The notes below the pieces were generated by a model that saw only the letters and a list, made by a program, of their open reading frames with translations, made no database searches and was not told the DNA's origin. 64,000 bases of DNA from Candidatus Harrisonbacteria bacterium CG10_big_fil_rev_8_21_14_0_10_40_38 (GTDB taxonomy: Bacteria > Patescibacteriota > Minisyncoccia > UBA6257 > 1-14-0-10-40-38). Of this stretch, positions 17,073 through 35,277 are shown one piece after another (position 1 is the stretch's first letter; each line of letters starts with the position of its first letter). The position numbers and the translations under genes were made by a program. The DNA is taken from NCBI GenBank assembly GCA_002773535.1, contig PFAZ01000001.1:19226-83225 (forward strand). Reading direction: 5' to 3'.

Positions 17073-17077
17073 GTTTG

Positions 17078-17148
17078 TGCCCCCACATGGAATCGAACCA
17101 TGATCAACTGCTTAAAAGGCAGCTGCTTTGCCACTAAGCTATGGGGGC
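17078..17148 (-). tRNA. tRNA-Lys (anticodon UUU), 71 nt, no encoded CCA
   Basis: The reverse complement folds as GCCCCCA-TA-GCTT-AGTGGCA-AAGC-A-GCTGC-CTTTTAA-GCAGT-TGAT-CATGG-TTCGATT-CCATG-TGGGGGC-A, a canonical cloverleaf with a TTCGA T-loop. Confidence 0.85.
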
Positions 17149-17397
17149 ATTAAAATCCTCGATAAGCTTCCTTACTGTAATGCCTCCTTTCTGTTTTTTC
17201 AACCATTTTTCATATCTTAAGTCAGATTGCCCATCTCTAAATTCTTTTTGAAAAATAAGAATTAATGGAATTCGATATCTTGTAGAAATATTTTTACCGG
17301 AATTATGCTCCTCAATTCTTTTTTTAACGTTTGAAGTCGAGCCAACATATCTCCTTCCATCCTTGCTACTTTTTAATATGTAAACAAAGTGCGGCAT
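17134..17397 (-). CDS. Small GIY-YIG nuclease-domain protein (87 aa)
   Basis: FVYILKSSKDGRRYVGSTSNVKKRIEEHNSG is the GIY-YIG motif; the last four codons overlap the 5' end of tRNA-Lys. Confidence 0.8.
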   Translation of the reverse strand: MPHFVYILKSSKDGRRYVGSTSNVKKRIEEHNSGKNISTRYRIPLILIFQKEFRDGQSDLRYEKWLKKQKGGITVRKLIEDFNAPIA

Positions 17398-17426
17398 ATC
17401 AACTACCTATTTTCTATCTCAAGGAA

Positions 17427-17480
17427 TTTGCCACTAAGTCCCGCGAAGCGGGATCCCGCCCTGCGGCGATTATGGGGGCA
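17427..17480. repeat. Duplicated 5' fragment of the tRNA-Lys gene (12 + 10 nt) interrupted by a 32-nt hairpin-forming insert
   Basis: tttgccactaag + [tcccgcgaagcgggatcccgccctgcggcgat] + tatgggggca matches 17127..17138 and 17140..17149 of the intact tRNA. Confidence 0.65.
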
Positions 17481-22402: not shown

Positions 22403-22437
22403 CATAATTCATAATTCATACTTCATAATTCATATAT
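22403..22437 (+). repeat. CATAATT-family heptamer tandem array abutting the start codon of 22436..23986
   Basis: The units are cataatt cataatt catactt cataatt catat(ATG). Confidence 0.7.
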
Positions 22438-23986
22438 GAGCGACATCAACTTTTTCGGAAGCACAACTTTCCGAAACCAACAGAAAAAATTTGGCATAAA
22501 AAAAGACGATCGCCGTCGTCACATGTATGTGATAGGAAAAACCGGTGTTGGTAAAACAACGCTTCTCGAAAACATGGCTATTTCAGATATTGTGAACGGA
22601 AACGGGTTGGGCATTATAGATCCTCACGGTGAGTTTGCTGAAAAACTTTTAGAATACATTCCCGAAGAACGCATAGACGATGTCGTTTATTTTGATCCGT
22701 CAGATATAAACTTCCCAATAGCATTCAACCCGTTAGAACAGGTTGATCCTGAGTTTCGCCACCTCGTCGCCTCATCAATCATGGGCGTATTCCAAAAAAT
22801 CTGGATAGACGCATGGTCTGCGAGGATGCAATATATTTTAAATAACACACTCCTAGCCCTTCTCGAAAACCCTGGCACAACACTCCTCTCAATCATGAGG
22901 ATGCTAAATGACAAAAACTATAGAAAGGGTATTGTCGAAAATCTCACCGATCCGGTAGTAAAAAGTTTCTGGGCAAACGAATTTGCAAGATATTCAGAAA
23001 AATTTGAAACCGAAGCCACAGCCGCTATCCAAAACAAAGTCGGTCAGTTCGTCACAAACCCCCTCATCAGAAACATCTTAGGCCAAAAAGTCTCGTCAAT
23101 AGACATGAGAAAGATCATGGATGAAAAAAAGATTTTTATCGTAAACCTCTCAAAGGGAAAGATAGGGGAGGATAACTCGGCCCTTATAGGTTCGATGATT
23201 ATCACAAAGCTCCAACTCGCCGCCATGTCTCGTGTAGATATTCCAGAGAAAGACAGAAACGACTTTTATCTCTACGTAGATGAGTTTCAAAACTTTGCCA
23301 CAGACTCATTTGCAAACATTCTCTCCGAGGCGAGAAAATACCGCCTTTGTCTTGTGCTCGCGCACCAGTACATTCGCCAGCTAACTCACAACGAAAACAC
23401 AAAAGTCAGAGACGCTGTTTTTGGTAACGTGGGAACCATGGTCAGTTTCAGAGTTGGAGCCGATGATGCAGAGTTTTTAGAGCGTGAGTTTCAACCAGAC
23501 TTTCTCGCCACCGATCTTGTAAATCTTGCCAAATATAATGCTTATATAAAACTTATGATAGACGGCATAGCCGCGCGACCATTTTCTGCCGAGTCGCTTC
23601 CGCCAACACCCCTCCCTCCAAAATCATACAAAGAAGACATTATCGAAAATACGAGGCAAAAATACGGCATGGCACGAGAACGTGTAGAAGAAAAAATTAG
23701 AAACGAATGGATGCCATCAGGTGAAAAAGCAGCCGAAGAACTCGTTCAAAGAAGGGGAGAGCAATCCTTAGATAGAGTTTTGAGAAATGCCAAACCTCCG
23801 AAAAAAAATAAACCCGAAAACCAAAACGGATCAAACAGTGAAAACGAAAAACCAAAAGAAAACGAACAAAAGCAAAAAGAAAAAAAAGAAATCAATCTCG
23901 CAGAGTTAAGACAAGCGCTCTCACAGGCCCTAAACGAAAAAAACGTCTCAAAAGAACAAGAACCCGAAGAACCACCGAGTCCATAA
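22436..23986 (+). CDS. P-loop ATPase of the TraD/VirD4 (type IV coupling protein) / FtsK-HerA superfamily
   Basis: Walker A VIGKTGVGKTTLL, Walker B YLYVDEFQNFA, and a LVLAHQYIRQL...FGNVGTMVSFRVG block typical of coupling-protein ATPases; the C-terminus is a Lys/Glu-rich low-complexity tail. Confidence 0.55.
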   Translation: MSDINFFGSTTFRNQQKKFGIKKDDRRRHMYVIGKTGVGKTTLLENMAISDIVNGNGLGIIDPHGEFAEKLLEYIPEERIDDVVYFDPSDINFPIAFNPLEQVDPEFRHLVASSIMGVFQKIWIDAWSARMQYILNNTLLALLENPGTTLLSIMRMLNDKNYRKGIVENLTDPVVKSFWANEFARYSEKFETEATAAIQNKVGQFVTNPLIRNILGQKVSSIDMRKIMDEKKIFIVNLSKGKIGEDNSALIGSMIITKLQLAAMSRVDIPEKDRNDFYLYVDEFQNFATDSFANILSEARKYRLCLVLAHQYIRQLTHNENTKVRDAVFGNVGTMVSFRVGADDAEFLEREFQPDFLATDLVNLAKYNAYIKLMIDGIAARPFSAESLPPTPLPPKSYKEDIIENTRQKYGMARERVEEKIRNEWMPSGEKAAEELVQRRGEQSLDRVLRNAKPPKKNKPENQNGSNSENEKPKENEQKQKEKKEINLAELRQALSQALNEKNVSKEQEPEEPPSP

Positions 23987-24016
23987 TTCATACTCCATAC
24001 TCCATACTTCTATTTT
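23982..24016 (+). repeat. CATAATT-family heptamer array overlapping the stop codon of 22436..23986
   Basis: The units are cataatt catactc catactc catactt ctatttt. Confidence 0.65.
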
Positions 24017-24017
24017 A

Positions 24018-24057
24018 TAAAAAAACCCCCACCCGTGCCTTGCGGCTCGGGTGGGGG
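24018..24057 (-). terminator. Intrinsic terminator for the - strand ORF 24089..24358
   Basis: cccccacccg / cgggtggggg 10-bp GC stem; on the - strand it is followed by a T7 run. Confidence 0.7.
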
Positions 24058-24088
24058 ATTGCGTTGTTAGCAAAAAACTCAATTCATT

Positions 24089-24358
24089 CTATTGCGATTC
24101 TTGCCTCTGTCTTCTCTCGTCACCTATCCTTTTCAAGATCTCGTCAACATCCCTATCTAAATATTTCATGATCGGCTTTAGTAGCCATCTCTCAAATATA
24201 TTTAGTCTCAATTTTTTCATAATAGAAGTCTCGCATTTTTCTATTTCATCATTTTTCTTTTTGATTAGCTCAAGAATCGCTCGCACAACAAGATGATTCA
24301 ATCTATGAGTAGCTTTCAAATACCGAAAAATCGGATATCTAACAATATTTCCCAGCAT
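24089..24358 (-). CDS. Hypothetical small protein (89 aa)
   Basis: An ORF with a strong terminator immediately downstream; no recognisable motif. Confidence 0.4.
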   Translation of the reverse strand: MLGNIVRYPIFRYLKATHRLNHLVVRAILELIKKKNDEIEKCETSIMKKLRLNIFERWLLKPIMKYLDRDVDEILKRIGDERRQRQESQ

Positions 24359-24563
24359 CCTTCCCTCCGTATTTTTTCACTGGTTTGAAATGTGCGAGAA
24401 AGATTAAACCTGTAAAATCAGGCTCAATCACTAAAAATAAAATACATCAAAAACCCCAAAAAAGTCAAATAACAACCTCACAAATTGACAAAAAAAGAAA
24501 AGAATGCAAACTAGCCAATAGTTCCAAAACAACCAAAAACCCAAGAACGAGGAGGATAGACAA

Positions 24564-24653
24564 ATGGCAACAAAGAACCTCAAGAAACTCTCGAAGAGGA
24601 TGGATATTCCTGTAAACGCATTTCAAGAATGCGCTCGGTCTCAAAATTACTGA
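24564..24653 (+). CDS. Small ORF (28 aa, MATKNLKKLSKRMDIPVNAFQECARSQNY) with strong SD; a possibly frameshifted longer gene continues in the +1 frame to 24774
   Basis: aggagg lies 7 nt upstream of the ATG. The protein-like +1 frame (..TVPEAKEAYYNAPEDSEAERAALRKIYDLFKDEE*) has no start codon. Confidence 0.25.
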   Translation: MATKNLKKLSKRMDIPVNAFQECARSQNY

Positions 24654-24788
24654 AACATGTGATGCCACCACAGTCCCCGAAGCGAAAGAAGCATACTATA
24701 ATGCTCCCGAGGACAGCGAAGCAGAACGTGCTGCCCTCCGCAAAATCTACGACCTCTTCAAAGACGAAGAGTAACCCCCTCGACCCAA

Positions 24789-24822
24789 GCCTCCGGCAAC
24801 CCCCGGAGGCTCTAACTTTTTA
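24789..24822 (+). terminator. Intrinsic terminator
   Basis: gcctccgg-caaccc-ccggaggc followed by tctaactttttaat. Confidence 0.65.
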
Positions 24823-24849
24823 ATAATATTTAAAACTTTTTTTATGCCG

Positions 24850-25112
24850 CCATGCGGTATAAAAAAATACCGTAAGTCCATTCCCACTCCCCAAATACAG
24901 AGAAAGCAACACAACCAAGTTCCCAATCTCCCCGCTCTACGGGGAGAGCAGGGAACTACCTTAAGTCCAACTTTCTTTGAAGGCGTCTTCTTAAGTCCTT
25001 GAACGGATTACGGAGGCTGTTTTGGCATGGTCCCCCGCAAACGCGGGGGCAAAACAGCCGGAGTCCTCGGAGTCCAGCGCTGGCTGGACGAGAATGAGCG
25101 AAAGGACTTAAG
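24850..25112. ncRNA. Highly structured intergenic element (candidate ncRNA or efp 3'-UTR structure); strand undetermined
   Basis: Perfect helices: tcttcttaagtcctt(24999-25013)/aaggacttaagaaga(25097-25111); ggctgttttg/caaaacagcc; cccccgc-aaac-gcggggg; gtccagc-gctg-gctggac; tctccccg-ctcta-cggggaga nested in agttccc/gggaact. Confidence 0.35.
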
Positions 25113-25683
25113 AAGATGCCTTTTCCACTCTCTCTACATAGCTTCCTGTCTCTGTATTTACCCTCACAACATCTCCAACATTCACAAAAAACGGAACATT
25201 AACGATAGCCCCAGTCTCAAGTGTCGCCGGCTTCGATCCGCCAGAAGCGGTATCACCCCTGATCCCTGGAGGAGTTTCTTTTACTTCGAGGTCTAGTTTT
25301 ACCGGAACTTCGATGTTTATTATTTTCTCGTCAAAGTAATCCGCGGTTACTTCGGTATTTTGTTTCAAAAATTTTGCAGGCGTCCCGATAATGTCTTCTC
25401 CTAAAGAAAACCTTGCTGAAGGGTTGTCGATTTCACAAAACCAAAACTCTCCTTTATTGCTGTACAAAAACTTTACCGATCGCTTTTCTATATCCGCTTC
25501 GTCAAATGACTCGTTCATATGAAAGCTCCTCTCGGCAATTTTCCCCGTGATAAGGTTTCTGATTTTTGTCTTTGCGACAGGCTTCCTCTGTTGCATACGA
25601 AGAAACTCATACTCAAGCACTTGGTACGGTTGTCCCTCCATAACAAAAAGTACGCCTTTCTTTAAATCTGTATAACTAAGCAT
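25108..25683 (-). CDS. efp: Elongation factor P
   Basis: MLSYTDLKKGVLFVMEGQPYQVLEYEF... with full three-domain EF-P length; the ORF track extends further upstream to 25746. Confidence 0.9.
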   Translation of the reverse strand: MLSYTDLKKGVLFVMEGQPYQVLEYEFLRMQQRKPVAKTKIRNLITGKIAERSFHMNESFDEADIEKRSVKFLYSNKGEFWFCEIDNPSARFSLGEDIIGTPAKFLKQNTEVTADYFDEKIINIEVPVKLDLEVKETPPGIRGDTASGGSKPATLETGAIVNVPFFVNVGDVVRVNTETGSYVERVEKASS

Positions 25684-25766: not shown

Positions 25767-26546
25767 ATGAAAAAATACATATTAATATTCGTTGCAATTG
25801 TAGCCGTAATTGGAATTTTTGCTTATTCAAATTCTTCCAAGTCAGATCAATCAGCTTTTTTTAAAGATGAGCTTATCAAATCCGGTCTTGAGCGTTTTGG
25901 TCAACCGATAGAAGGTTTTAACGCATTCATATATCTCGAAGCATTCCCAGGTTTTGAAGAGGTAGATTTTGACGGCGTCGAGACACTCGAAGGCAAAATG
26001 ACTTTTAAAGATGGAACGCTGACATTTGAGCGCACCGCTGACAACCCAATAACATCAGCCGAAAGCATGATTTCAGACGAGGGCTACACAACGCTCATGA
26101 AAAACTTTTCAGAACGCATTGGTGTAAATGTAGAAACAGAAGCCGATGTCGCCACGCTACTTGAAAAACTCCACGAAAGCAACGGAGAACCCAACGCAAA
26201 CGGAGACGACAATACCGGAATTTTGCCATTCAAATCTGGCGCGATGGGAAAGGTATTACTCGGCCCAACTTGTCCGGTCGAAAAAGATCCACCTGACCCA
26301 AACTGTGCCGACAAAGGATACGCGACCACCATACAGGTTATAGAAAAGAACAGTCCTAAAAGTTCACTTTTCTCTAGCGTAGAAACAGATAAAGAAGGGA
26401 ACTATAAAGTTTTTCTCCCTCCGGGTGAATATGAGCTCCAAGCATTAGGAGGCAAGACCTTTCCGAGATGCGAGTGGGAGGATATCACCATAGAGCCAGA
26501 CACTATGATAAAAATAGACCTCACTTGCGACACTGGCATTAGATAA
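25767..26546 (+). CDS. Secreted or lipoprotein-like hypothetical protein
   Basis: N-terminal signal peptide MKKYILIFVAIVAVIGIFAYS; C-terminal beta-sandwich-like GNYKVFLPPGEYEL. Confidence 0.5.
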   Translation: MKKYILIFVAIVAVIGIFAYSNSSKSDQSAFFKDELIKSGLERFGQPIEGFNAFIYLEAFPGFEEVDFDGVETLEGKMTFKDGTLTFERTADNPITSAESMISDEGYTTLMKNFSERIGVNVETEADVATLLEKLHESNGEPNANGDDNTGILPFKSGAMGKVLLGPTCPVEKDPPDPNCADKGYATTIQVIEKNSPKSSLFSSVETDKEGNYKVFLPPGEYELQALGGKTFPRCEWEDITIEPDTMIKIDLTCDTGIR

Positions 26547-26580
26547 TCAAATACTTAAATACCCCAAAAAACACGGCAAC

Positions 26581-28728
26581 ATGAAAGTTGCCGTGCTTCC
26601 TTCTAAACTCCAAAAAAACTGGATTTTCCAGCAAAAAGAGGGGATAATAGCAATAAATAAAACTCTTCAAGTTCTCAAATATAGAAATATGAAAAAAATA
26701 CTAGACATCATAAAAGATTCAAATTACAGTTTTTCACTTTTTGATCAAAAACTTATTGATGAGTTGGAGCAGAAAATCACTATTAAAGACGGCAAACCAT
26801 ATGTTGTTTGCGCTATTCGCGACAAAGAAATTGTATTGAAGCCAGAGGAAATAGTGCGCCAGCTATACGCAATGAAATTACTTGGGGAATATGGTTACCC
26901 GAAAACCAGAATTAAATTTGAACACGCAATTCATTTTGGTCGTGAAATAAAATCCGCCGACATTGTTATTTTCGACAAAGACCGCCCGACCGTTGAATAC
27001 ATTATTGTAGAAATAAAAAAGCCAAAACTTCAAGACGGAAAAAATCAACTTCGCTCATATACCAACGCCACCGGCGCGCCGATTGCTGTTTGGACCAATG
27101 GTGGTCAAATTTCTCACTACAACCGCAAAGATCCGAACTATTTTGAAGACATTACCGATATTCCAAAAGCCGACCAAACGCTTGAAGATATTTTGAAAGA
27201 AAGGTTTACTCTCAAAGACTTAATCATCAAAGACAAAATCCCAAATGAGGGGAAATCACTCAAAACCATTATTCAGGATATGGAAGACGAGGTTTTGGCC
27301 GCCGCCGGTGTGGACGTCTTTGAAGAAGTATTTAAACTTATTTTTACCAAACTTTACGATGAATTACAGAGCAAGAAAGATAAAATGCGTCTGGAAATTT
27401 ATCTTGAAGATAAGTTAAGCAAAGAAGATCGCGGAGATTATGACAAGGTAAAAGAAATTTTGGCAAAAATTGATGACAGCAGTTTCAGGGTTCTGGAATT
27501 TAGAAACACCGGACAATCAGAGGGCGAACTTAAAAAGAAAATCCAAAAACTTTTTGACGAAGCCAAAGCCAAATGGCCGGGCGTTTTTGACGAAGCTAGC
27601 CAGATTCTACTTTCTCCATCACATCTTTCTGTTGTAGTTTCCGGTTTTCAAGATATAAAACTTTTTAACTCAAACCTGCAAATTATTGATGAAGCTTTTG
27701 AATATTTAGTTAGTAAGTCAGCTAAAGGTGAAAAAGGCCAATACTTCACCCCTCGCCATGTGATTGATATGTGCGTCAAAATGCTCAATCCAAAAGCTGG
27801 CGAATATATGGTAGATACCGCCGCCGGTTCTTGCGGATTTACCGTTCACACTATTTTTCAAATTACAGGACACCTATTTCAAAACACGGATATTTCCGAA
27901 AAAGAAAAAGAAAATGTGCTAAAAGTTTTTGGCATTGATTTTGACGAAAAAGTCGTGCGCGTGGCTCGCACCTTAAACCTGATTGCCGGAGACGGAAACA
28001 CTAATGTTTTGCACCTCAACAATCTTGATTATGAACGCTGGAATGAATCAATTCAAAATCGCGATTGGCTGGAAGTGTACGGAGCGGGATTAAAACGGCT
28101 TGAAGTTCTGCAAAAAGATAAAAGTTCATACAAAGAATTTAATTTTGATATTCTCATGGCAAACCCGCCATTTGCCGGAGACATCAAGGAATCCCGTATA
28201 ATCCACAAATACGATCTTGGCTACAATGACAAAAACAAGCCAAAATCAAAAGTTGGGCGCGATATTTTGTTTATTGAGAGAAACTTAAATTTTTTGAAGC
28301 CGGGCGGAAGAATGGCAATTGTTTTACCTCAAGGACGTTTTAACAATACATCAGACAAAGCAATTCGCGAGTATATCGCCGAAAAAGGCAGAATTTTGGC
28401 TGTTGTCGGACTCCACGTAAACACTTTCAAACCACACACGGGAACAAAAACCAGCGTACTTTTTGTGCAGAAATGGGACAATAAACTATGCCCGAAAGTG
28501 GAAGACTACCCGATTTTCTTTGCTGTTTCCGAGAAATCCGGCAAAGATAATTCCGGCGAGTATGTGTTTTTGAAAAACGGAGGTGGTCAGTCGAAATTGG
28601 ATAAAAACGGCCATTTAATAATCGAGCACGATCTGCACAACCACGACGGAGAATTGCCCGACGGCGTGGCGGAAAAATTTATTGAATGGGCAAAGTCGGA
28701 AAAATTAAGTTTTTGGAAGCAGTTATGA
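26581..28728 (+). CDS. Fused restriction-modification subunit: N-terminal HsdR_N-type PD-(D/E)xK nuclease domain + gamma-class N6-adenine DNA methyltransferase (BcgI-A / Type IIB-IIG-like); the start may instead be 26689
   Basis: Nuclease motif ...SADIVIFDKDRPTVEYIIVEIKKPK (D...ExK). MTase motifs QYFTPRHVIDMCVKML (X), VDTAAGSCGF (I), MANPPF (IV). Confidence 0.75.
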   Translation: MKVAVLPSKLQKNWIFQQKEGIIAINKTLQVLKYRNMKKILDIIKDSNYSFSLFDQKLIDELEQKITIKDGKPYVVCAIRDKEIVLKPEEIVRQLYAMKLLGEYGYPKTRIKFEHAIHFGREIKSADIVIFDKDRPTVEYIIVEIKKPKLQDGKNQLRSYTNATGAPIAVWTNGGQISHYNRKDPNYFEDITDIPKADQTLEDILKERFTLKDLIIKDKIPNEGKSLKTIIQDMEDEVLAAAGVDVFEEVFKLIFTKLYDELQSKKDKMRLEIYLEDKLSKEDRGDYDKVKEILAKIDDSSFRVLEFRNTGQSEGELKKKIQKLFDEAKAKWPGVFDEASQILLSPSHLSVVVSGFQDIKLFNSNLQIIDEAFEYLVSKSAKGEKGQYFTPRHVIDMCVKMLNPKAGEYMVDTAAGSCGFTVHTIFQITGHLFQNTDISEKEKENVLKVFGIDFDEKVVRVARTLNLIAGDGNTNVLHLNNLDYERWNESIQNRDWLEVYGAGLKRLEVLQKDKSSYKEFNFDILMANPPFAGDIKESRIIHKYDLGYNDKNKPKSKVGRDILFIERNLNFLKPGGRMAIVLPQGRFNNTSDKAIREYIAEKGRILAVVGLHVNTFKPHTGTKTSVLFVQKWDNKLCPKVEDYPIFFAVSEKSGKDNSGEYVFLKNGGGQSKLDKNGHLIIEHDLHNHDGELPDGVAEKFIEWAKSEKLSFWKQL

Positions 28729-28762
28729 AGCACTAAACTATATTAAATACTTTGGATCAAAT

Positions 28763-30649
28763 ATGCTTATTCTACGAAAAATGAAAATCAAAAACTTCCG
28801 CTCGTTCGTTGATGACGAGATTGTTTTTGATGATATTACGGCAATCGTTGGCGCAAACGAAGGAGGTAAAACAAATATTTTAGATGCTATTGAACATATT
28901 ACAAGCGAAAGCCCTTTCAAACACGATGACTTGAGAAAGGGGTCAAAGAATTATCCATACGGAGAAATTGAAATTAACTATACGGTTACTTTAACCGACA
29001 AGGTGATTCCTGAACTCATTGAAGAAGTGCCTCAACTTAATGAAAGAGATTTTCTGATTACCAAGAAAGGAAAATTAGATCATGCGCCCGATTTTTGTTT
29101 CCAACTTATAGATGCTAAAGATTTAGAAAAGATTATTACAATAAAAAAAGTTTCTCAATTCAAGAAAAAGTTTGACGCAGAACAGATTAAAGCATTCGAT
29201 GAAGCGTTGAAAAGAAAATGGTTTGTTAAAAAACCAGTACTCAATCTAACACACTCCCCATTCCCACAGTTGAGGAAAGAAGGTGTGATTGAGGTTATTG
29301 ATAGCGAGCAGAAAATAAACAGCTTCCTTTCTAGTAAGATTATAGAAGAATTAAGGAGTAACACAAACATTTATTTTTGGAAGTATAACAAGGGGGAGTT
29401 TCTAAAAAATATAACACCCATTAATGAGTTTGTTGCAAATCCTAATAACTTTCCTGCTATGAAAAATCTTTTTACCGTTGCGGGCTGGAAGAAAAATGAT
29501 TTTCAGCGATATCTCGTCGATACTAAAATAAATGATGCAGTTGTTGTGATGCGGGAAGTTGAAAATAAAATAAATAAGCTCATTAAAAAAACCTGGAGGC
29601 AGCATCGAGACTTGACAATCTCCATCCAACGCACAGAAAATGATTTGCTTTTGAATCTGCAAGAACTCAATGCCCCCACCCCACCAGAGATTAGGAGCGA
29701 TGGGTTGAAATGGTTTTTGGGTTTCCTAATCAACTTTCGAGCAAGGGCAAAAAATTTGAGCGACTTTACCATTCTTATAGACGAACCAGCTCTACATTTG
29801 CATCCTCGTGGACAAAAGGATGTGTTATCAGAAATTAAGGGTTTAGGAAAGGATAATCAGATTATTTACACTACCCATCAAACTTTTATGTTAGATAGGA
29901 ATCATCCTGAAAGAGTGAGAATCTTAACAAGAGAATCTATAAAAAGCGGCGGGCATGATTATTACTTCGCATCAAGAATAATAGGAGAACCTGAAACCAA
30001 AGATATTATTTCAGACCCGTTATTGAGAGAAGCGTTAGGATTTAACGTTTCCGACATATCGCCGATTAGTGCAAAAAATATTTTAGTCGAGGGAACTTTT
30101 GATAGGGGGTTATTACTTTTGCTCAATAAATATTTTCCTAGTATTGATTTAGAGCAATTTTCCATTATTGCTTGCGATGGAGCATCAGACATAAAAAGAT
30201 TTGCAAACTTCTGCTTGGCAAACGAGTTAAAAATTTTTTGTCTTTATGATAGTGATGAGAGTGGTAAGATATGCCACGACAATACTTCCGAAAATGCAGT
30301 GCCGACAAACCTAAAAACTCATTTTAAACTACTGCATAATGATTTTTTGGCTTTAGAAACACCAGAGGATTTATTCTCGCTGGAGCTTTTCAGAAATGCA
30401 ACGAGGGATGTTACTGAATTAAAGGATTTTGCGCCAACGAGTTCCTCTCCCAAGATGCAACAACTAAAGACATTTCTTGATTCAAAAAAAATCAGTAGGG
30501 ACGAAAAAAACGAGATAAAGCATAAACTTGAAGATGCTCTTTTGAAAAAGTTAGGAGAAGAATTAAATAATCAAAAAATATCTACTGGCGATAGTTTAGT
30601 AAAACTCCTAGTTTCTTTAGCAGAGGAATTAAAGAAGAGAAAGATTTAG
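28763..30649 (+). CDS. OLD-family ATP-dependent nuclease (ABC-type ATPase + C-terminal TOPRIM), Gabija-GajA / PARIS-like
   Basis: IKNFRSF...ITAIVGANEGGKTNILDAI (Walker A), ILIDEPALHLHP (Walker B/D-loop), IIYTTHQ (H-loop); TOPRIM NILVEGTFDRGLL and LYDSDESG (DxD). Confidence 0.75.
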   Translation: MLILRKMKIKNFRSFVDDEIVFDDITAIVGANEGGKTNILDAIEHITSESPFKHDDLRKGSKNYPYGEIEINYTVTLTDKVIPELIEEVPQLNERDFLITKKGKLDHAPDFCFQLIDAKDLEKIITIKKVSQFKKKFDAEQIKAFDEALKRKWFVKKPVLNLTHSPFPQLRKEGVIEVIDSEQKINSFLSSKIIEELRSNTNIYFWKYNKGEFLKNITPINEFVANPNNFPAMKNLFTVAGWKKNDFQRYLVDTKINDAVVVMREVENKINKLIKKTWRQHRDLTISIQRTENDLLLNLQELNAPTPPEIRSDGLKWFLGFLINFRARAKNLSDFTILIDEPALHLHPRGQKDVLSEIKGLGKDNQIIYTTHQTFMLDRNHPERVRILTRESIKSGGHDYYFASRIIGEPETKDIISDPLLREALGFNVSDISPISAKNILVEGTFDRGLLLLLNKYFPSIDLEQFSIIACDGASDIKRFANFCLANELKIFCLYDSDESGKICHDNTSENAVPTNLKTHFKLLHNDFLALETPEDLFSLELFRNATRDVTELKDFAPTSSSPKMQQLKTFLDSKKISRDEKNEIKHKLEDALLKKLGEELNNQKISTGDSLVKLLVSLAEELKKRKI

Positions 30650-30679
30650 AATAAATCAAGAGGAAAAATAAAAATAACT

Positions 30680-32098
30680 ATGCAATATTCAGTTGTAAAT
30701 CACAAAATGGTAAAAGAAAATTCTGATTTTAGGATTGATGGCGAATTTTACCATCCCGTAATTTTAAATCGGCTAGATTTACTCAATCACAAAAGAAATG
30801 GGCAATTGAAGAACTTGGTAAAATTTGTAGTTGGCCCTTTTGGTTCAACAGTTACAGTTGATAAATATGTTGAAGAGTCAAATTTTAGGTACATCAGAAA
30901 CAAAGATATAAATGATTTTGTGATTGGAGAAACTGATCCAGCTTTAATCCCTGAAGAAGTGTACCATTCGCTAAAACAATTTCACATTCAACAAGACGAC
31001 CTCTTACTAACAGTAGTTGGTACACTTGGAAAAGTCGCGATAGCACAGGAAAAAGACATACACTCTATTTTCAGTTGCAAAAGTACGCTTTTGCGGTCAC
31101 AGGGATTAAATCCTTACTATTTACTAACATACTTAAATTCTGCAACAGGACGACTTTTTTCATTACGAGGGAAACGAGGCGCAATTCAAGAGGGACTCAA
31201 TTTATCAGATCTAAAAGATATTAAGGTTTTCATTCCATCAGAGGATTTTCAAAATAAAATAGCAGAACTAGTGCAAAAATCTTTTTCAATAATTAATAAT
31301 TCAAAATCCCTCTACTCTCAAGCCGAGCAATTACTCCTTTCCGAACTCGGACTTTTAGACTGGAAGCCAAAACATGCACTTTCTTTTGTAAAAAACTTTT
31401 CCGCAACGCTTGAAGCCAATCGTTTTGACGCAGAGTATTTTCAGCCGAAATACGAGGAAATTGTTGAAGCGGTAAGAAAATACAAAGGCGGATTTGATGA
31501 ACTGAGTAATTTGGTGAAAATTAAAAAAAGCGTTGAGCCGGGAAGTGAAGCATACCAAGAAAACGGAATCCCTTTTGTCCGTGTGAGTAATCTTTCAAAA
31601 TTTGAGCTTTCCGACAACAACCAGCAATTTATATCCGAGGAATTATACAACGAACTAAAAACACATCAGCCAAAGAAAGGTGAAATTTTGCTTTCAAAGG
31701 ACGCAACGCCCGGCAGGGCATATTATTTGAACGAAGAATCACAAAAAATGATAGTTTCCGGCGGAATTTTGAGGTTAAAAATGGATAACAAACAGATATT
31801 GCCGGAGTATTTGACGCTTGTTTTAAATTCCGTAATTGTGCAAAGGCAAATTGAGCGCGACGCTGGCGGATCAATCATTAACCATTGGAGACCTGACCAA
31901 GTAAAAACAACGCTCATTCCAATTTTGAAAGAAAATAAACAAAAAGAAATCAAAGAATTAATTGAAAAATCATTTAACGACAGGAAGTTATCCAAATCTC
32001 TGCTTGACATCGCCAAGCGAGGCGTGGAAATGGCAATAGAAAAAGACGAACAGGAAGCGGAACGGTGGATTAATAGCGAAACCAAAACACTAAACTAA
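30680..32098 (+). CDS. hsdS: Restriction-modification specificity subunit (HsdS-like, two TRDs)
   Basis: Two repeated halves with conserved blocks DLLLTVVGTLGKVAI / GEILLSKDATPGRAY and GAIQEGLNLSDLKDIKVFIPS / GGSIINHWRPDQVKTTLIPIL, plus central and C-terminal coiled coils. Confidence 0.8.
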   Translation: MQYSVVNHKMVKENSDFRIDGEFYHPVILNRLDLLNHKRNGQLKNLVKFVVGPFGSTVTVDKYVEESNFRYIRNKDINDFVIGETDPALIPEEVYHSLKQFHIQQDDLLLTVVGTLGKVAIAQEKDIHSIFSCKSTLLRSQGLNPYYLLTYLNSATGRLFSLRGKRGAIQEGLNLSDLKDIKVFIPSEDFQNKIAELVQKSFSIINNSKSLYSQAEQLLLSELGLLDWKPKHALSFVKNFSATLEANRFDAEYFQPKYEEIVEAVRKYKGGFDELSNLVKIKKSVEPGSEAYQENGIPFVRVSNLSKFELSDNNQQFISEELYNELKTHQPKKGEILLSKDATPGRAYYLNEESQKMIVSGGILRLKMDNKQILPEYLTLVLNSVIVQRQIERDAGGSIINHWRPDQVKTTLIPILKENKQKEIKELIEKSFNDRKLSKSLLDIAKRGVEMAIEKDEQEAERWINSETKTLN

Positions 32099-32112
32099 AC
32101 CACAAAAAACTC

Positions 32113-32862
32113 ATGTCCGAATACTATAACCCAAACAGAGACTCCTCATGGAATTACGGAGGAAAAAATTGGAAACTAAGTCGCTCTAAGATCGACCTGT
32201 TTTTAGAGTGTCCGCGATGTTTCTATATAGACAATAAGCTCGGCGTAAAGCGAGTACCCGGATTTCCTTTTTCTATCAACAGCGCAGTGGACTACCTCCT
32301 TAAACAAGAGTTTGATGCGTATCGAGTAAAAAATGAGCAACACCCGCTTCAAAAAGAGTACGGTATAGATGCCAGACCAATGTCTCACGATGAGCTTGAT
32401 GAATGGAGGAGAAATTTCGGTGGTATTAGGTATCTACATGAACCGACTGGGCTTTTAGTAACCGGAGCGATTGATGACTTGTGGATCAATAAAAAAGACG
32501 AACATATTGTCGTTGACTACAAAGCAACAGCAAAAGACGAAGCAGTAAAAGCGCTAGATAAAGAATGGCAAGATGGCTACAAACGACAAATGGAAGTCTA
32601 TCAGTGGCTCTTGCGACAAAATGGACTCAAAGTTTCTGATATTGGATATTTTGTTTACTGCACCGGAAAAATGGATCGCCAAGCTTTTGATAAAAAAATC
32701 GAGTTCGACGTGAATCTGATCGAATACAAAGGAAATGACTCATGGGTAGAAAAAACATTATTTGAAATAAAGAAATGTTTAGATGGTAGCGAAATACCGC
32801 AATCAGAAAAATCTTGCGATCATTGCGCGTATTGGAACTCCCGAAAAAAATTTGAGAAATAA
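32113..32862 (+). CDS. Cas4/RecB-like PD-(D/E)xK nuclease with N- and C-terminal CxxC pairs (putative Fe-S)
   Basis: Motifs GAIDDLW, HIVVDYKATAK, RQMEVYQWL (QxxxY); Cys residues at CPRC and CDHC. Confidence 0.6.
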   Translation: MSEYYNPNRDSSWNYGGKNWKLSRSKIDLFLECPRCFYIDNKLGVKRVPGFPFSINSAVDYLLKQEFDAYRVKNEQHPLQKEYGIDARPMSHDELDEWRRNFGGIRYLHEPTGLLVTGAIDDLWINKKDEHIVVDYKATAKDEAVKALDKEWQDGYKRQMEVYQWLLRQNGLKVSDIGYFVYCTGKMDRQAFDKKIEFDVNLIEYKGNDSWVEKTLFEIKKCLDGSEIPQSEKSCDHCAYWNSRKKFEK

Positions 32863-32864
32863 AC

Positions 32865-33362
32865 ATGCCAATCTTTTATATCATTAGTATTACTATAATC
32901 ATCGTGATAGCAATCTCAGTTGTTCGTAGAGGTTTTACCAGCGTTGAAGAAAAAGCCAAATATCATTATAACCACAAAAATTTCTTTCTTACGCGATCAG
33001 AGCATGAATGTTACGACGCCCTTGTTGAGGCAGTTGGTATGGAGTACCGCATTTTCGCGCAAGTGCATTTACCTACCATAGTTGACCACGCGGTTCGAGG
33101 GCAGAATTGGCGTGCTGCTCTTGCTCATATAAATCGAAAGTCGGTTGATTTTGTACTCTGCGACAAAGCATATCTCTCACCAAAACTCGCTATCGAGTTA
33201 GACGATAAATCACATGAACGACCAGATCGGCAAGAACGAGACCGCGAAGTGGAGCGTATTCTGCGTGAAGCAGGCGTACCACTCTTGAGACTGAAAAATT
33301 ATGAAAGCTCTAATTCAATCGAATTAGCTCAAAAAATCAAAAAAATATTAAACACAAAATAA
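32865..33362 (+). CDS. DUF2726-like (NERD/PD-(D/E)xK-like) domain protein with N-terminal TM anchor
   Basis: TM helix IISITIIIVIAISVV; SEHECYDALVEAVG...RIFAQVHL...SVDFVLCDKAYLSPKLAIELDDKSH pattern. Confidence 0.5.
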   Translation: MPIFYIISITIIIVIAISVVRRGFTSVEEKAKYHYNHKNFFLTRSEHECYDALVEAVGMEYRIFAQVHLPTIVDHAVRGQNWRAALAHINRKSVDFVLCDKAYLSPKLAIELDDKSHERPDRQERDREVERILREAGVPLLRLKNYESSNSIELAQKIKKILNTK

Positions 33363-33392
33363 TTTTTTACAAAAACACGCTATAATGCAACT

Positions 33393-34067
33393 ATGACCGA
33401 AACAATTTTTATTATTTCACTAGTCATTATATCGGCATTAGCCGTAGCGACGTTTGTGATAACTCTCCGAACTAGAAAAGAGACAGAAAAAATTAAATTT
33501 CATAACAGCGAAACAAACGATGCGCTTGCAAAGCTTAGCCATCAACATAAACAGCTATATACAGAAATCCTAACCGAAGTAAAAAAATACAAAGAGGACA
33601 ACAATGACATTTGGGATCGTGAAATCGATGACAGATACGAAGAAGCAAAAAAATTGATTTATGAAGCAAACAGAGTGTCAGCATCTTTCCTTCAGCGAAA
33701 ACTTAAAATCGGTTATGCACACGCTGCAAAATTATTAGATAAATTAGAAGAAGATAATCTGATAGGCCCAGGTGACGGAGCAAAGCCAAGAGAAGTTTTT
33801 ATTTCTGAAGATGATTTAGAAGAAAAACCACCAAAGGAAAGCCCATACGCTGAAGACGACGACCTATATCTACAAGTCAGAAAATTTGCAATCGAAACCG
33901 GAAAAATAAGCGCACCAAAACTGCAACGCCAATTTAAAATCGGCTACGCACGAGCCGCGTGCCTATTGGATCTACTAGAAGAGAGGGGAATTATCGAATC
34001 AACAAACAAAAAAGGGATGAAAAAAGTCCTAGTAACAGAAGACGGAATAAGAGAAACTGAAGAATAA
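33393..34067 (+). CDS. Membrane-anchored protein with two tandem FtsK-gamma (KOPS-binding winged-helix) domains and no translocase motor
   Basis: N-terminal TM helix, a coiled coil, then RVSASFLQRKLKIGYAHAAKLLDKLEEDNLIGPGDGAKPREV and KISAPKLQRQFKIGYARAACLLDLLEERGIIES, each matching the FtsK gamma consensus (LQRxLRIGYNRAARLIDxLEExGIV...KPREV). Confidence 0.65.
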   Translation: MTETIFIISLVIISALAVATFVITLRTRKETEKIKFHNSETNDALAKLSHQHKQLYTEILTEVKKYKEDNNDIWDREIDDRYEEAKKLIYEANRVSASFLQRKLKIGYAHAAKLLDKLEEDNLIGPGDGAKPREVFISEDDLEEKPPKESPYAEDDDLYLQVRKFAIETGKISAPKLQRQFKIGYARAACLLDLLEERGIIESTNKKGMKKVLVTEDGIRETEE

Positions 34068-34466
34068 ATGCCCAAAACAAAAAACATCCTCATACTCGAA
34101 GACGATATTGAAACACTAAGCAAGCTTCTTGAGGAAATCTCAAAACTCGAAGAAGAGATATATCCAGACGATATAGATGTAACTGTGCTTTCAAATTATA
34201 AATCGGTAGAGAAATGGATAAACAAAGAGGAGTCAGAAAAATACGACATAATTCTTTTAGATCGCGATTGTAAAATGGGTGGGTCATTTCATATTCTAGA
34301 TATAGAAAAATTTGGTCCAGATAAAATCATTTCTATTTCCTCAACCCCGCAATGGAACGAAGAAGCAAAAAAGAGAGGCATAAAAACAATCGTTTGGAAA
34401 AATTATGAAAATCTCGACGCATTCGCAAAGGATGTTGGGATAACAATCCGAGAAAATTTTCTATAA
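34068..34466 (+). CDS. Stand-alone receiver (REC/CheY-like) domain protein (divergent)
   Basis: ILILEDDIETL..., a phospho-acceptor-like DIILLDRDCKMGG, and a KTIVWKN end; its start overlaps the stop of the upstream gene. Confidence 0.4.
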   Translation: MPKTKNILILEDDIETLSKLLEEISKLEEEIYPDDIDVTVLSNYKSVEKWINKEESEKYDIILLDRDCKMGGSFHILDIEKFGPDKIISISSTPQWNEEAKKRGIKTIVWKNYENLDAFAKDVGITIRENFL

Positions 34467-34473
34467 AACCAAC

Positions 34474-34499
34474 CACTTCCCAAACTCCTAAAAAACCAG
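34474..34499 (+). repeat. 26-bp perfect direct repeat (second copy at 35568..35593) flanking the zeta-toxin cassette
   Basis: cacttcccaaactcctaaaaaaccag is identical at both sites. Adjacent roughly 30-bp blocks (34502..34530 and 35470..35500) are about 70% similar. Confidence 0.8.
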
Positions 34500-34563
34500 C
34501 CGTCGACTTCAGAGCTCTTGAGTAATCGGTATTACTCCAATCGTTTTTTGCTAAAATAGGATT

Positions 34564-35277
34564 ATGACCGATGAAGAAATTCGCGTTCAAGCAATTGAAT
34601 ATGCTAAACGAAATAAGGTTTCCATAGCCAAAAAGCTAACTGATCGCACAAAGTATATGCCGGATATTGTTCCTATTTCAGTTTTTATGGCCGGCTCGCC
34701 GGGTGCAGGCAAAACAGAGTTTTCAAAAAGTTTGATCAGTATTTTAGAAGCAGGCGAAGAGCGTCGCGTAGTACGCATTGACGGGGACGAAGTGCGACTA
34801 CTTATTCCCGACTACACCGGCAATAATTCATATCTTTTTCAGGGAGCAATTTCGCTTGTGGTAGAAAAAATGCATGATTTAGTTTTGCACAACAAACAAA
34901 GTTTTGTACTAGATAGTACGTTCTCAAACTACACTAAAGCCACGGATAATATTCGGCGTTCTTTGGGGAAAAGCAGACCAGTTTTTATTTTTTATATCTA
35001 TCAAAAACCAGAGGTCGCTTGGAACTTCACTCAAGCGAGAGAGAAAGTAGAGGGTAGAAATATTCCGAAATCAGCATTTCTTGATCAGTTTTTTGGCGCT
35101 AGAGAAACAGTGGATAAAATTTCCAGCGAGTTTAGTGATAAAGTAGTAATATTTTTAGTTAAAAAAGATTTTGAGAAAAATTCTGTTGAAAATATAGTTA
35201 AAATCGGACCAGAAAGTAATATTGACGAACATATAACAGAACTCTATACTAAAGATGAACTAGAAAAACGTTTATGA
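34564..35277 (+). CDS. Zeta-toxin / AAA_33 family P-loop kinase
   Basis: Walker A VFMAGSPGAGKTEFSK, an RIDGDEVR segment, and zeta-toxin-like length (237 aa). Confidence 0.6.
   Translation: MTDEEIRVQAIEYAKRNKVSIAKKLTDRTKYMPDIVPISVFMAGSPGAGKTEFSKSLISILEAGEERRVVRIDGDEVRLLIPDYTGNNSYLFQGAISLVVEKMHDLVLHNKQSFVLDSTFSNYTKATDNIRRSLGKSRPVFIFYIYQKPEVAWNFTQAREKVEGRNIPKSAFLDQFFGARETVDKISSEFSDKVVIFLVKKDFEKNSVENIVKIGPESNIDEHITELYTKDELEKRL

What the first reader, a model, noticed from the sequence alone, without database searches (positions are those of the whole stretch)
24850..25112. About 260-bp hairpin-dense element abutting the efp stop codon
A 15-bp perfect long-range helix (24999-25013 / 25097-25111, with the 3' arm overlapping the last efp codons) encloses three perfect hairpins (10-bp, 7-bp GC-rich, 7-bp). 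Upstream is an 8-bp hairpin nested in a 7-bp helix. The motif cttaagtcc occurs three times. I could not find RNase P, tmRNA or SRP signature sequences. All helices are pure Watson-Crick, so strand cannot be assigned. A MITE-like inverted-repeat element is also possible.
Basis: seen in the sequence. Interest (0 to 1): 0.55.

Follow-up and report, generated by a model that had tools for sequence, protein, structure and literature searches.

The report
Hairpin cluster copied from efp's end
Next to the stop codon of the translation factor gene efp, an uncultured groundwater bacterium carries a real, unusually stable cluster of hairpins whose two closing stems are back-to-front copies of efp's own last codons; it has no relatives anywhere, and it most likely formed on the spot as a structured gene tail rather than being a known RNA gene or a jumping element.

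Summary
The hairpins are real, but the long-range helix is mis-placed. It lies at 24980-25000 / 25102-25122 (21 bp: 15 perfect, one G·T, 5 more), not at 24999-25013 / 25097-25111.

- **Stability:** The 150 nt around it are the most stable fold in the 64 kb on the + strand (-7.1 sd). RNA z-scores are -8.6 to -9.9 (+) and about -6.5 (-).
- **Extent:** The domain is larger than reported. A second helix (24893-24903 / 25149-25159; 1/1000 shuffles) closes 24893-25159.
- **Origin:** Both closing helices are collinear inverted copies of native efp codons (VNTE; KASS-stop), so the arms were copied in place.
- **No known family:** Rfam and ARAGORN find nothing. There is no second copy in the window and no phage, plasmid, viral or metagenome homologue.
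- **Lineage-specific setting:** Five related lineages have efp and the convergent ATPase 2-99 nt apart. Here a 1.1-kb insert sits between them.
- **No variation:** All independent assemblies are 100% identical, so covariation cannot be tested.

Best reading: a young fold-back duplication, transcribed at least as the efp 3' UTR and acting as a 3'-end structure. MITE, retron, bridge RNA, TIGR and attC are not supported. Strand and function are unproven. Interest is modest.

The parts
23987..25107 (.). Lineage-specific 1.1-kb insert between the convergent stop codons of the TrwB/VirD4-like ATPase (22436-23986, +) and efp (25108-25683, -)
   Evidence: In five related lineages (EF-P 72-84% identical) the two genes are only 2-99 nt apart, with the same synteny.
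24027..24058 (-). GC-rich hairpin followed by T7 on the - strand; terminator of ORF89 and probably also of the ATPase
   Evidence: Read from the sequence.
24089..24358 (-). ORF89, an orphan 89-aa helical protein with a GGAGGG ribosome-binding site
   Evidence: Only itself among 5.8 billion proteins. No family hit. Low-confidence helical model.
24565..24775 (+). Small gene of a conserved family of unknown function, interrupted by a 1-nt frameshift near 24618
   Evidence: Three-frame translation. 124 representative homologues. Full-length alignment once one base is removed.
24788..24811 (+). Canonical intrinsic terminator of the small gene (9-bp stem followed by a T-run)
   Evidence: Homologues of the small gene carry the same kind of terminator.
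24837..24867 (.). 14-bp hairpin T7ATGCCGC-cat-GCGGTATA7, with one G·T at 24846/24858. Not terminator-shaped: the T-run comes first on both strands.
24893..24909 (.). 5' arm of the outer closing helix. It is an inverted copy of efp codons V-N-T-E-T (11 nt exact, 15/17 overall).
   Evidence: I2. (1/1000 shuffles). Present in the minimum-energy fold of both strands.
24918..24957 (.). Hairpin with a 7-bp stem (24918-24924 / 24951-24957) around an 8-bp GC stem (24927-24934 / 24940-24947)
24971..24979 (.). 3' arm of an alternative 9-bp stem with 24898-24906 (one G·T at 24900/24977). It competes with the outer helix.
   Evidence: compared with 79-80.
24980..25000 (.). 5' arm of the 21-bp inverted repeat. 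On the + strand it reads AAG GCG TCT TCT TAA GTCCTT, a copy of efp's K-A-S-S-stop plus 6 nt.
   Evidence: (I1).
25004..25066 (.). Long inner hairpin: a 5-bp stem, then the 10-bp stem (25015-25024 / 25050-25059), a 7-nt asymmetric loop, and the 7-bp GC stem (25032-25038 / 25043-25049)
25072..25089 (.). 7-bp hairpin GTCCAGC-gctg-GCTGGAC; third branch of the three-way junction
25102..25122 (.). 3' arm of the 21-bp inverted repeat. 25108-25122 is efp's last four codons plus the stop. On the + strand it is followed by TTTT (25121-25124 including the last two paired T).
25140..25159 (.). 3' arm of the outer closing helix, inside the efp coding sequence (codons VNTETGS)
24865..24880 (+). Copy 1 of the direct repeat AAnTACCnTAAGTCCA. 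Copy 2 is at 24954-24969 (14/16 identical). The shorter core CTTAAGTCC also occurs at 24990-24998 and, inverted, at 25104-25112.
   Evidence: (D1, D2), (3/300 shuffles).
25108..25683 (-). efp (elongation factor P), 191 aa from the ATG at 25683
   Evidence: Pfam EFP_N, EFP and Elong-fact-P_C. 100% identical to a Candidatus Harrisonbacteria protein.

Best explanation
**What it is**
The element is a single-copy, lineage-specific non-coding domain (24893-25159, plus an upstream hairpin at 24837-24867). It sits at the junction between a 1.1-kb accessory insert and the 3' end of efp, in a Candidatus Harrisonbacteria (candidate phyla radiation) genome.

**Origin (well supported)**
Its two closing helices are collinear, inverted copies of efp's own last 52 nt. 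The domain was therefore built in place by fold-back (template-switch) copying of the efp 3' end. Further local palindromes and short duplications were added later. It was not imported as a ready-made RNA gene or transposon.

**Function (inferred)**
- No terminator lies between the efp stop and the element, so the efp mRNA necessarily reads into it.
- The RNA then folds into a very stable multi-branch structure anchored on the stop-codon region.
- I propose it acts as the 3'-end structure of the efp transcript: a barrier to 3'-to-5' exonucleases and to transcription from either side.
- This would replace the single long hairpin that sits between efp and the convergent ATPase gene in relatives, from which the insert separated efp.
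- On the + strand, the same 21-bp stem followed by UUUU would stop read-through from the small gene before it runs antisense into efp.
For: **Structure is real and extreme:**

**Copied in place**
- The 21-nt inverted repeat (20/21) equals efp's K-A-S-S-stop plus 6 nt.
- A second inverted match, 24893-24903 to 25149-25159 (11 nt exact, 15/17), is collinear with it. Only 1 of 1000 dinucleotide shuffles reaches this.
- The copied codons are native to efp. VNTETG is conserved in all five relatives, and relative L102 ends in AKASE against EKASS here.
- The region also holds an excess of short local direct repeats. Template switching at quasi-palindromes is a known mutational route to perfect inverted repeats (PMC7202029).

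**Lineage-specific and young**
- Relatives have only 2-99 nt between the two genes.
- ORF89 in the insert is an orphan.
- Stems are almost all perfect.
- At least seven contigs from six samples are 100% identical.

**Transcription and role**
- No terminator-like site is found on the - strand between the efp stop and 24596.
- Relatives that have a spacer carry one long hairpin right after the efp stop (L089, L102).
- Canonical U-tract terminators exist elsewhere in this genome, but the element's own hairpins lack U-tracts.
Against: - There are no expression data, so neither strand's transcript is demonstrated.
- Three nested or adjacent modules, about 270 nt and -120 kcal/mol, are far more than 3'-end protection needs.
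- The only non-Watson-Crick pairs are G·U on the + strand and A·C on the efp mRNA strand. The + strand fold is also better defined: the minimum-energy structure has an ensemble frequency of 0.018 against 0.0008. This fits a + strand RNA better than an efp 3' UTR.
- A 15-21-bp perfect duplex that includes the stop codon could be an RNase III target, and so harmful rather than protective.
- Similarity between the two copied blocks is not significant in the 20 nt between them (177/2000 shuffles). The 'duplication' therefore rests on two blocks.
- The element may have no function at all.
Confidence: 0.4

Rival explanations
1. Neutral by-product. The palindromes and the inverted efp copy are recent mutational debris (template switching, slippage) in unconstrained DNA of a decaying accessory insert. 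They have no selected function.
For: - The small gene next to the element is frameshifted.
- ORF89 is an orphan.
- Stems are near-perfect, as expected for young repeats.
- The region is a patchwork of short direct and inverted repeats.
- No homologue is found anywhere.
Against: - Genomes of this group are compact, and about 300 nt of non-coding DNA is unusual here.
- The two copied blocks are 92% identical while the sequence between them is unrecognisable. This hints at uneven constraint.
- All three imperfections are G·T rather than disruptive mismatches.
Confidence: 0.25
2. A free-standing structured non-coding RNA on the + strand (about 230-290 nt, ending at the 21-bp stem plus UUUU). Its 3' end is antisense to efp's last codons and its 5' part mimics them. 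It would act on efp expression or have an unrelated role.
For: - The + strand z-score is stronger (-9.9 against -6.5; -8.6 against -6.55).
- It is the top + strand fold in the window.
- Three of three non-Watson-Crick pairs are G·U on the + strand.
- Linkers are C/A-rich on the + strand.
- The closing stem is followed by U4 on the + strand only.
Against: - No promoter-like site is found between the small gene's terminator and the element.
- That terminator is the family-typical end of the small gene's transcript.
- The outer helix needs the RNA to run 52 nt into efp, past its own presumed terminator.
- There is no Rfam match at E<=10, no homologue and no covariation.
- A 21-bp perfect duplex is atypical of long-lived functional RNAs.
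Confidence: 0.15
3. A miniature inverted-repeat transposable element (or other mobile palindromic DNA) of 143 bp, 24980-25122, with 21-bp terminal repeats. It would have inserted into the efp 3' end and supplied its last codons.
For: - It has 21-bp near-perfect inverted repeats, a size of 143 bp and no coding capacity.
- It lies in horizontally acquired DNA.
Against: - There is no other copy in 64 kb and no target-site duplication.
- A metagenome scan for the repeat pair gave only 5 unrelated hairpins.
- EF-P length and its K-A-S tail look native.
- A second, collinear inverted match to conserved efp codons lies outside the supposed terminal repeats. An insertion cannot explain this.
Confidence: 0.05
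4. The RNA component of a mobile-element or defence system (retron msr-msd, IS110/IS1111 bridge or seek RNA, TnpB/IscB omega RNA, TIGR stem-loop array, type III antitoxin), or an invertible DNA switch bounded by the 21-bp repeats.
For: - A defence island lies on the other side of efp.
- The architecture is an inverted repeat flanking hairpins.
- One chance-level scan hit sits 3' of an IS110-family transposase.
Against: - No reverse transcriptase, DEDD recombinase, TnpB/IscB, Nop/Tas protein, integrase or invertase is found among the annotated ORFs from 13.8 to 41.5 kb.
- There is no tandem periodicity and no Rfam hit.
- The internal sequence is unrelated to the IS110-linked hairpins.
- All assemblies show one orientation.
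Confidence: 0.05

Closest known systems
Stem-loop structures 3' of genes that stabilise upstream mRNA or separate convergent transcripts (REP/BIME-type elements of enterobacteria; bidirectional terminator hairpins)
   Same: - It is a stable palindromic structure placed directly after a stop codon between convergent genes.
- Relatives carry a single long hairpin at the same junction.
- Protection against 3' exonucleases is the classical role of such structures (own knowledge, not tested here).
   Different: - It is single-copy and not a dispersed family.
- It is about 270 nt with three branches instead of one hairpin.
- Its closing arms are copies of the gene's own coding end and reach 52 nt into the coding sequence.
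- It has no U-tract on the efp strand.
Quasi-palindrome template-switch products (PMC7202029)
   Same: - It has near-perfect inverted repeats with isolated single mismatches.
- It is a patchwork of short local inverted and direct copies, including a copy of adjacent coding sequence.
   Different: The documented events are point-scale corrections of existing quasi-palindromes. Here 17-21-nt blocks separated by 100-230 nt would have to be created. The mechanism is inferred, not shown.
Phage lambda sib retroregulator (an RNase III-sensitive hairpin 3' of int)
   Same: It is a long duplex at the 3' end of a coding region that could be an RNase III substrate and so control the upstream gene from downstream (own knowledge).
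   Different: There is no evidence of RNase III cleavage or of alternative transcripts. The duplex here includes the stop codon itself.
Miniature inverted-repeat elements such as Correia, ERIC and RUP
   Same: It has 21-bp terminal-type inverted repeats, a 143-bp unit, a folded transcript and a location at a gene end.
   Different: It has no second copy and no target-site duplication. Its repeat arms derive from host codons.

Membership tests
Any Rfam 15 family (including RNase P, SRP, 6S, tmRNA, ribozymes, riboswitches) | Covariance-model match at or near the family's gathering score | tested here: not met
   The whole window at gathering threshold gives only tRNA-Lys. For 24700-25250 at E<=10, the best hits are 8-18 bits against cut-offs of 35-72, and all lie on the upstream terminator region.
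tRNA / tmRNA | ARAGORN detection of a cloverleaf, or of a tRNA-like domain plus tag | tested here: not met
   Only tRNA-Lys at 17077-17148.
MITE | Terminal inverted repeats on a short non-coding unit | tested here: met
   21-nt inverted repeat, 20/21, bounding 143 bp.
MITE | Several copies in the genome | tested here: not met
   No second copy in 64 kb. The rest of the genome could not be searched.
MITE | Target-site duplication flanking the terminal repeats | tested here: not met
   The flanks are ...CTTTCTTTG | and | TTCCACTC..., with no direct repeat.
MITE | Terminal repeats of foreign (transposon) origin | tested here: not met
   The arms copy native efp codons, and a second collinear copy lies outside them.
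Intrinsic terminator | GC-rich stem with a short loop, immediately followed by a U-tract | tested here: inconclusive
   The scan calls only 24788-24811 on the + strand. The 21-bp stem is followed by UUUU on the + strand only, and it has a 101-nt branched 'loop'. The inner hairpins lack U-tracts.
Retron msr-msd | Adjacent reverse transcriptase gene | tested here: not met
   No RT domain in ORFs from 13.8 to 41.5 kb.
IS110/IS1111 bridge or seek RNA | Adjacent DEDD (IS110-family) recombinase | tested here: not met
   None nearby. The hairpins linked to an IS110-family gene (assigned by eye from its sequence) in L093/L095 share only the searched 11-14-nt ends.
TIGR-Tas array (PMC12045711) | Regular tandem units (about 36 nt, or stem-loop arrays with box C/D) next to a Nop-domain Tas gene | tested here: not met
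   No tandem periodicity. No Nop-domain hit among neighbours.
Integron attC | R''/R' core sites (RYYYAAC ... GTTRRRY) at the ends of the imperfect palindrome | tested here: not met
   The arms read AAGGCGTCTTCTTAAGTCCTT / AAGGACTTAAGAAGATGCCTT, with no GTTRRRY. No integrase nearby.
Invertible DNA switch | Both orientations present in the population, plus an invertase | tested here: inconclusive
   Every assembly that spans it has the same orientation. Raw reads were not available. No recombinase is found in the window region annotated.
Conserved structured RNA (generic) | Covariation across homologues | not testable with these tools
   No homologue exists in any collection searched, and all contigs are 100% identical.

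The most novel reading that the evidence does not exclude
A new, lineage-restricted regulatory RNA built from the target gene's own end. A roughly 270-nt structured transcript would carry both a sense mimic and an antisense copy of two segments of efp's 3' coding region. It would control EF-P mRNA stability or translation termination, for example by RNase III-type cleavage or by sequestering the stop codon. This would show how a reduced candidate-phyla-radiation genome can make a regulatory RNA from scratch by fold-back duplication.
Probability: 0.15. Interest if true: 0.6.

Novelty: new variant of a known kind. Interest (0 to 1): 0.3.

Why it matters
If the origin reading is right, this is a clean natural example of a large, very stable RNA/DNA structure created in place by inverted copying of a gene's own 3' end. 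It arose at the scar of a horizontal insertion, in a genome type where non-coding DNA is scarce. If it proves functional, it would show how structured 3' ends or regulatory RNAs can arise from scratch.

As it stands, it is one orphan locus in one clonal population, with no expression data and no possibility of covariation. It is a curiosity rather than a discovery.

Tried and rejected
- **Known RNA families:** Rfam at gathering threshold and at E<=10 and ARAGORN found nothing.
- **Extra copies:** A blastn-short self-search of the window and motif searches found none.
- **Phage and plasmid collections:** 'Distant' blastn found no match.
- **Viral contigs:** Three pattern or protein scans found nothing.
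- **Metagenome scan for the inverted-repeat pair:**
  - It returned 5 hits, all unrelated inside. Two are perfect palindromes.
  - One hit (L095) lies 3' of what looks like an IS110-family transposase, and L093 is its homologue.
  - This number is expected by chance for an 'X...revcomp(X)' pattern, so the hits were rejected.
  - The scan did not even recover the source contig, so it is a weak negative.
- **Genome-collection scan with EF-P:** The best hit is 51% identical, so the source species is not in that collection.
- **Orthologous loci for covariation:** Five relatives lack the element. Same-species contigs are all identical.
- **Link to neighbouring genes:**
  - ORF89 is an orphan, and its structure model is too poor to search.
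  - Homologues of the small gene exist, but their downstream DNA has only plain terminators.
  - A word-indexed protein search with the small gene found nothing.
- **Tandem or degenerate duplication of units:** None found.
- **Dispersed family of GC hairpins:** Only 9-12 such hairpins occur in 64 kb, and most are terminators.
- **efp homology between the two copied blocks:** Not significant.
- **Logan contig breaks:** Breaks at 25065/25094 and 24866 inside the element were considered as evidence for inversion or heterogeneity. They were judged uninformative.
- **Replication origin:** Cumulative GC skew has a minimum near here, but there is no switch of gene strand, so this was rejected.
- **Considered by eye and dropped:**
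  - RNase P P4-like 'AAGUCC'.
  - 6S-like closing stem and bubble.
  - CsrA-type GGA sites.
  - ECF-sigma promoter motifs.
  - tmRNA tag frame.

Full report
**Source and setting**

The window comes from an uncultured Candidatus Harrisonbacteria (candidate phyla radiation, Parcubacteria) genome from the CG10 Crystal Geyser series. Its EF-P is 100% identical to the NCBI protein of that name. efp lies on the - strand at 25108-25683, with its stop at 25108-25110. Upstream on the + strand are:
- a TrwB/VirD4-like ATPase (22436-23986);
- a GC hairpin with T7 on the - strand (24027-24058);
- an 89-aa ORF on the - strand (24089-24358);
- a small + strand gene (24565-24775) followed by a canonical terminator (24788-24811);
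- the hairpin-dense stretch itself.

Mostly yes. CTTAAGTCC occurs three times in the entire 64 kb, all within 153 bp here.

The long-range helix is mis-located. It is at 24980-25000 / 25102-25122: 21 nt, 20/21 complementary, with 15 perfect pairs at 24986-25000 / 25102-25116. Its 3' arm covers efp's last four codons and stop.

The structure is far beyond chance:
- RNA z-scores are -9.9 (+) and -6.5 (-) for 24812-25125.
- 24976-25125 is the most stable 150-nt window on the + strand of the whole 64 kb (-83 kcal/mol, -7.1 sd after GC correction). It is second on the - strand.
- There are 21 inverted 8-mer pairs against 1.5 expected; 0 of 500 shuffles reach this.
- 4 of the window's 12 GC-rich perfect hairpins lie in 300 bp here, and unlike the others they are not followed by T-runs.

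- *An outer helix.* A second inverted match links 24893-24909 to 25143-25159 inside efp (I2). It is 11 nt exact and 15/17 overall, and only 1 of 1000 dinucleotide shuffles reaches it. It is collinear with the 21-nt repeat. When 24890-25162 is folded, the minimum-energy structure on both strands closes the whole domain with this outer helix. That helix encloses the 24918-24957 hairpin and the 24980-25122 three-way junction (z = -8.6 and -6.55). The domain therefore reaches 52 nt into the coding sequence.
- *G·T pairs.* The helices are not purely Watson-Crick. Three extended helices each hold one G·T that is a G·U on the + strand and an A·C on the - strand.

**Origin**

On the + strand the two 5' arms read as sense copies of efp codons. 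AAATACAGAGA matches (V)NTE, and AAG GCG TCT TCT TAA matches K-A-S-S-stop. Those codons are native to efp:
- VNTETG is conserved in all relatives.
- The closest tail, AKASE in L102, matches EKASS here.
- EF-P tail length is typical.

So the arms were copied from efp in inverted orientation, in place. The 20 nt between the blocks show no significant similarity. The copy also carries about 50 extra nucleotides that supply the complementary strands of the inner hairpin.

The stretch additionally contains several short local repeats:
- a 16-nt direct repeat (14/16);
- a 9-nt-period tandem CGGAGTCC;
- an 8-mer shared with the upstream terminator.

This patchwork of short local inverted and direct copies is what replication template switching at quasi-palindromes produces (mechanism: PMC7202029). 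That this mechanism acted here is my inference.

**Comparative evidence**

- Five related lineages (EF-P 72-84% identical) keep the synteny CobA - MnmA - NTP-transferase - efp, then the convergent ATPase. Only 2-99 nt separate the two stop codons.
- Where a spacer exists in these relatives, it holds one long hairpin right after the efp stop.
- 23987-25107 is therefore a lineage-specific 1.1-kb insert.
- On the other side of efp, a roughly 10-kb defence island replaces the NTP-transferase gene.
- ORF89 has no homologue among 5.8 billion proteins.
- The small + gene belongs to a real family: 124 representatives and a full-length alignment. It carries a 1-nt frameshift here.
- Downstream of its homologues there are only ordinary terminators. 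The element is therefore not part of that gene's unit.
- At least seven contigs from six samples are 100% identical to the window across the region they cover. This rules out an assembly artefact. It also rules out any covariation test.

**Known families**

- Rfam gives nothing, even at E<=10. ARAGORN gives nothing.
- There is no copy elsewhere in the window.
- There is no match in phage or plasmid records or in viral contigs.
- The one metagenome scan, for the repeat pair, returned five unrelated hairpins. That number is expected by chance for a self-complementary pattern.
- No reverse transcriptase, IS110-type recombinase, TnpB/IscB, Nop/Tas protein, integrase or invertase is encoded between 13.8 and 41.5 kb.
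- There is no tandem periodicity.
- The MITE reading fails on copy number and on target-site duplication. It fails above all because both closing helices copy host codons.

**Which strand?**

This is unresolved.
- *For the + strand:* it has the stronger z-scores, a better-defined fold, three of three G·U pairs, C/A-rich linkers, and UUUU after the 21-bp stem.
- *Caveats on that evidence:* only one of the G·U pairs lies in the closed-domain fold. No promoter-like site precedes the element on the + strand. The small gene's own terminator lies upstream.
- *For the - strand:* it is the only strand with an evident source of transcription. efp has no terminator-like site before 24596, so its mRNA must run into the element.

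**Most likely mechanism**

- *Shown:* an exceptional, single-copy, lineage-specific structure whose closing arms are inverted copies of efp's native 3' end, lying at the edge of an accessory insert.
- *Inferred:* it arose by fold-back copying when or after the insert separated efp from the hairpin it shared with the convergent ATPase gene.
- *Inferred:* as RNA it serves as the 3'-end structure of the efp transcript and as a barrier between the convergent units. I give this 0.4.
- *Rivals:* a functionless mutational by-product (0.25); a + strand non-coding RNA antisense to the efp end (0.15); a MITE (0.05); a mobile-element or defence RNA, or an invertible switch (0.05).

**Verdict**

The feature is real and its anatomy is corrected and extended here. 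It is not a member of any known RNA or repeat family. It is best described as a new variant of a gene-end palindromic structure, built from the gene's own coding end. Interest is modest (0.3), because there is one clonal locus, no expression data and no route to covariation.

Noticed in passing
window 17134-17480 (- strand): tRNA-Lys(UUU) at 17148-17077 is directly preceded by an 87-aa GIY-YIG nuclease ORF (17397-17137; Pfam E = 6e-13) whose 3' end overlaps the tRNA's 5' end. Further upstream (17476-17420) is a second copy of the tRNA's first ~22 nt, interrupted by a 32-nt GC-rich hairpin insert. It looks like a homing-type insertion that duplicated the tRNA's 5' end. A 2026 paper reports group I introns in Patescibacteria tRNA genes (PMC13011429, not read).
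   Followed up: partly
window 24565-24775 (+): The small gene needs a +1 shift near 24618 (GTA AAC G CAT) to give a 69-aa protein. That protein aligns end to end with a family of unknown function, often built of 2-8 tandem ~35-aa repeats (124 cluster representatives). The frameshift is present in every independent assembly that spans it. It is either a pseudogene or a programmed frameshift.
   Followed up: partly
window 25767-35277: A defence island lies between efp and mnmA, where relatives have an NTP-transferase gene. It holds a type I-like methyltransferase with an HsdR-N domain, an OLD/Gabija-like ATPase-TOPRIM nuclease, and a specificity subunit, with hits to PADLOC 'mads' models. It also holds a Cas4-like PD-(D/E)XK nuclease, DUF2726, an FtsK-gamma protein and a zeta toxin. 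There is no recognisable HsdR helicase subunit.
   Followed up: partly
window 24089-24358 (-): ORF89 has a strong ribosome-binding site, a promoter-like site (24468-24439) and a strong terminator, but no homologue among 5.8 billion proteins. The predicted fold is three helices at low confidence.
   Followed up: yes
window ~23990-24010: Three tandem copies of a 7-nt unit (CATACTC CATACTC CATACTT) lie immediately after the ATPase stop codon, at the left edge of the insert.
   Followed up: no
L095 1658-1781 and L093 200-322: Two related metagenome contigs carry a ~120-nt long hairpin bounded by TTCTTAAGTCCTTG...AAGGACTTAAGAA. In L095 it lies 18 nt downstream of a 404-aa ORF that looks like an IS110-family transposase by eye (not tested). 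This is possibly an IS1111-type 3' RNA or subterminal repeat. It is unrelated inside to the window's element.
   Followed up: partly
window 24866, 25065 and 25094: Three Logan contigs end inside the element. Two, from run SRR6240789, overlap by 30 nt at 25065-25094. The third, from run SRR6240784, ends at 24866. The cause could be low coverage of hairpin-rich DNA or population heterogeneity. It cannot be resolved without reads.
   Followed up: no
L089 2784-2840; L102 3577-3675: In two related lineages the short spacer between efp and the ATPase gene is filled by one long near-perfect hairpin (23 bp in L089, 16 bp in L102) without a clear U-tract. This suggests such hairpins are the usual gene-end signal at this convergent junction.
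   Followed up: partly
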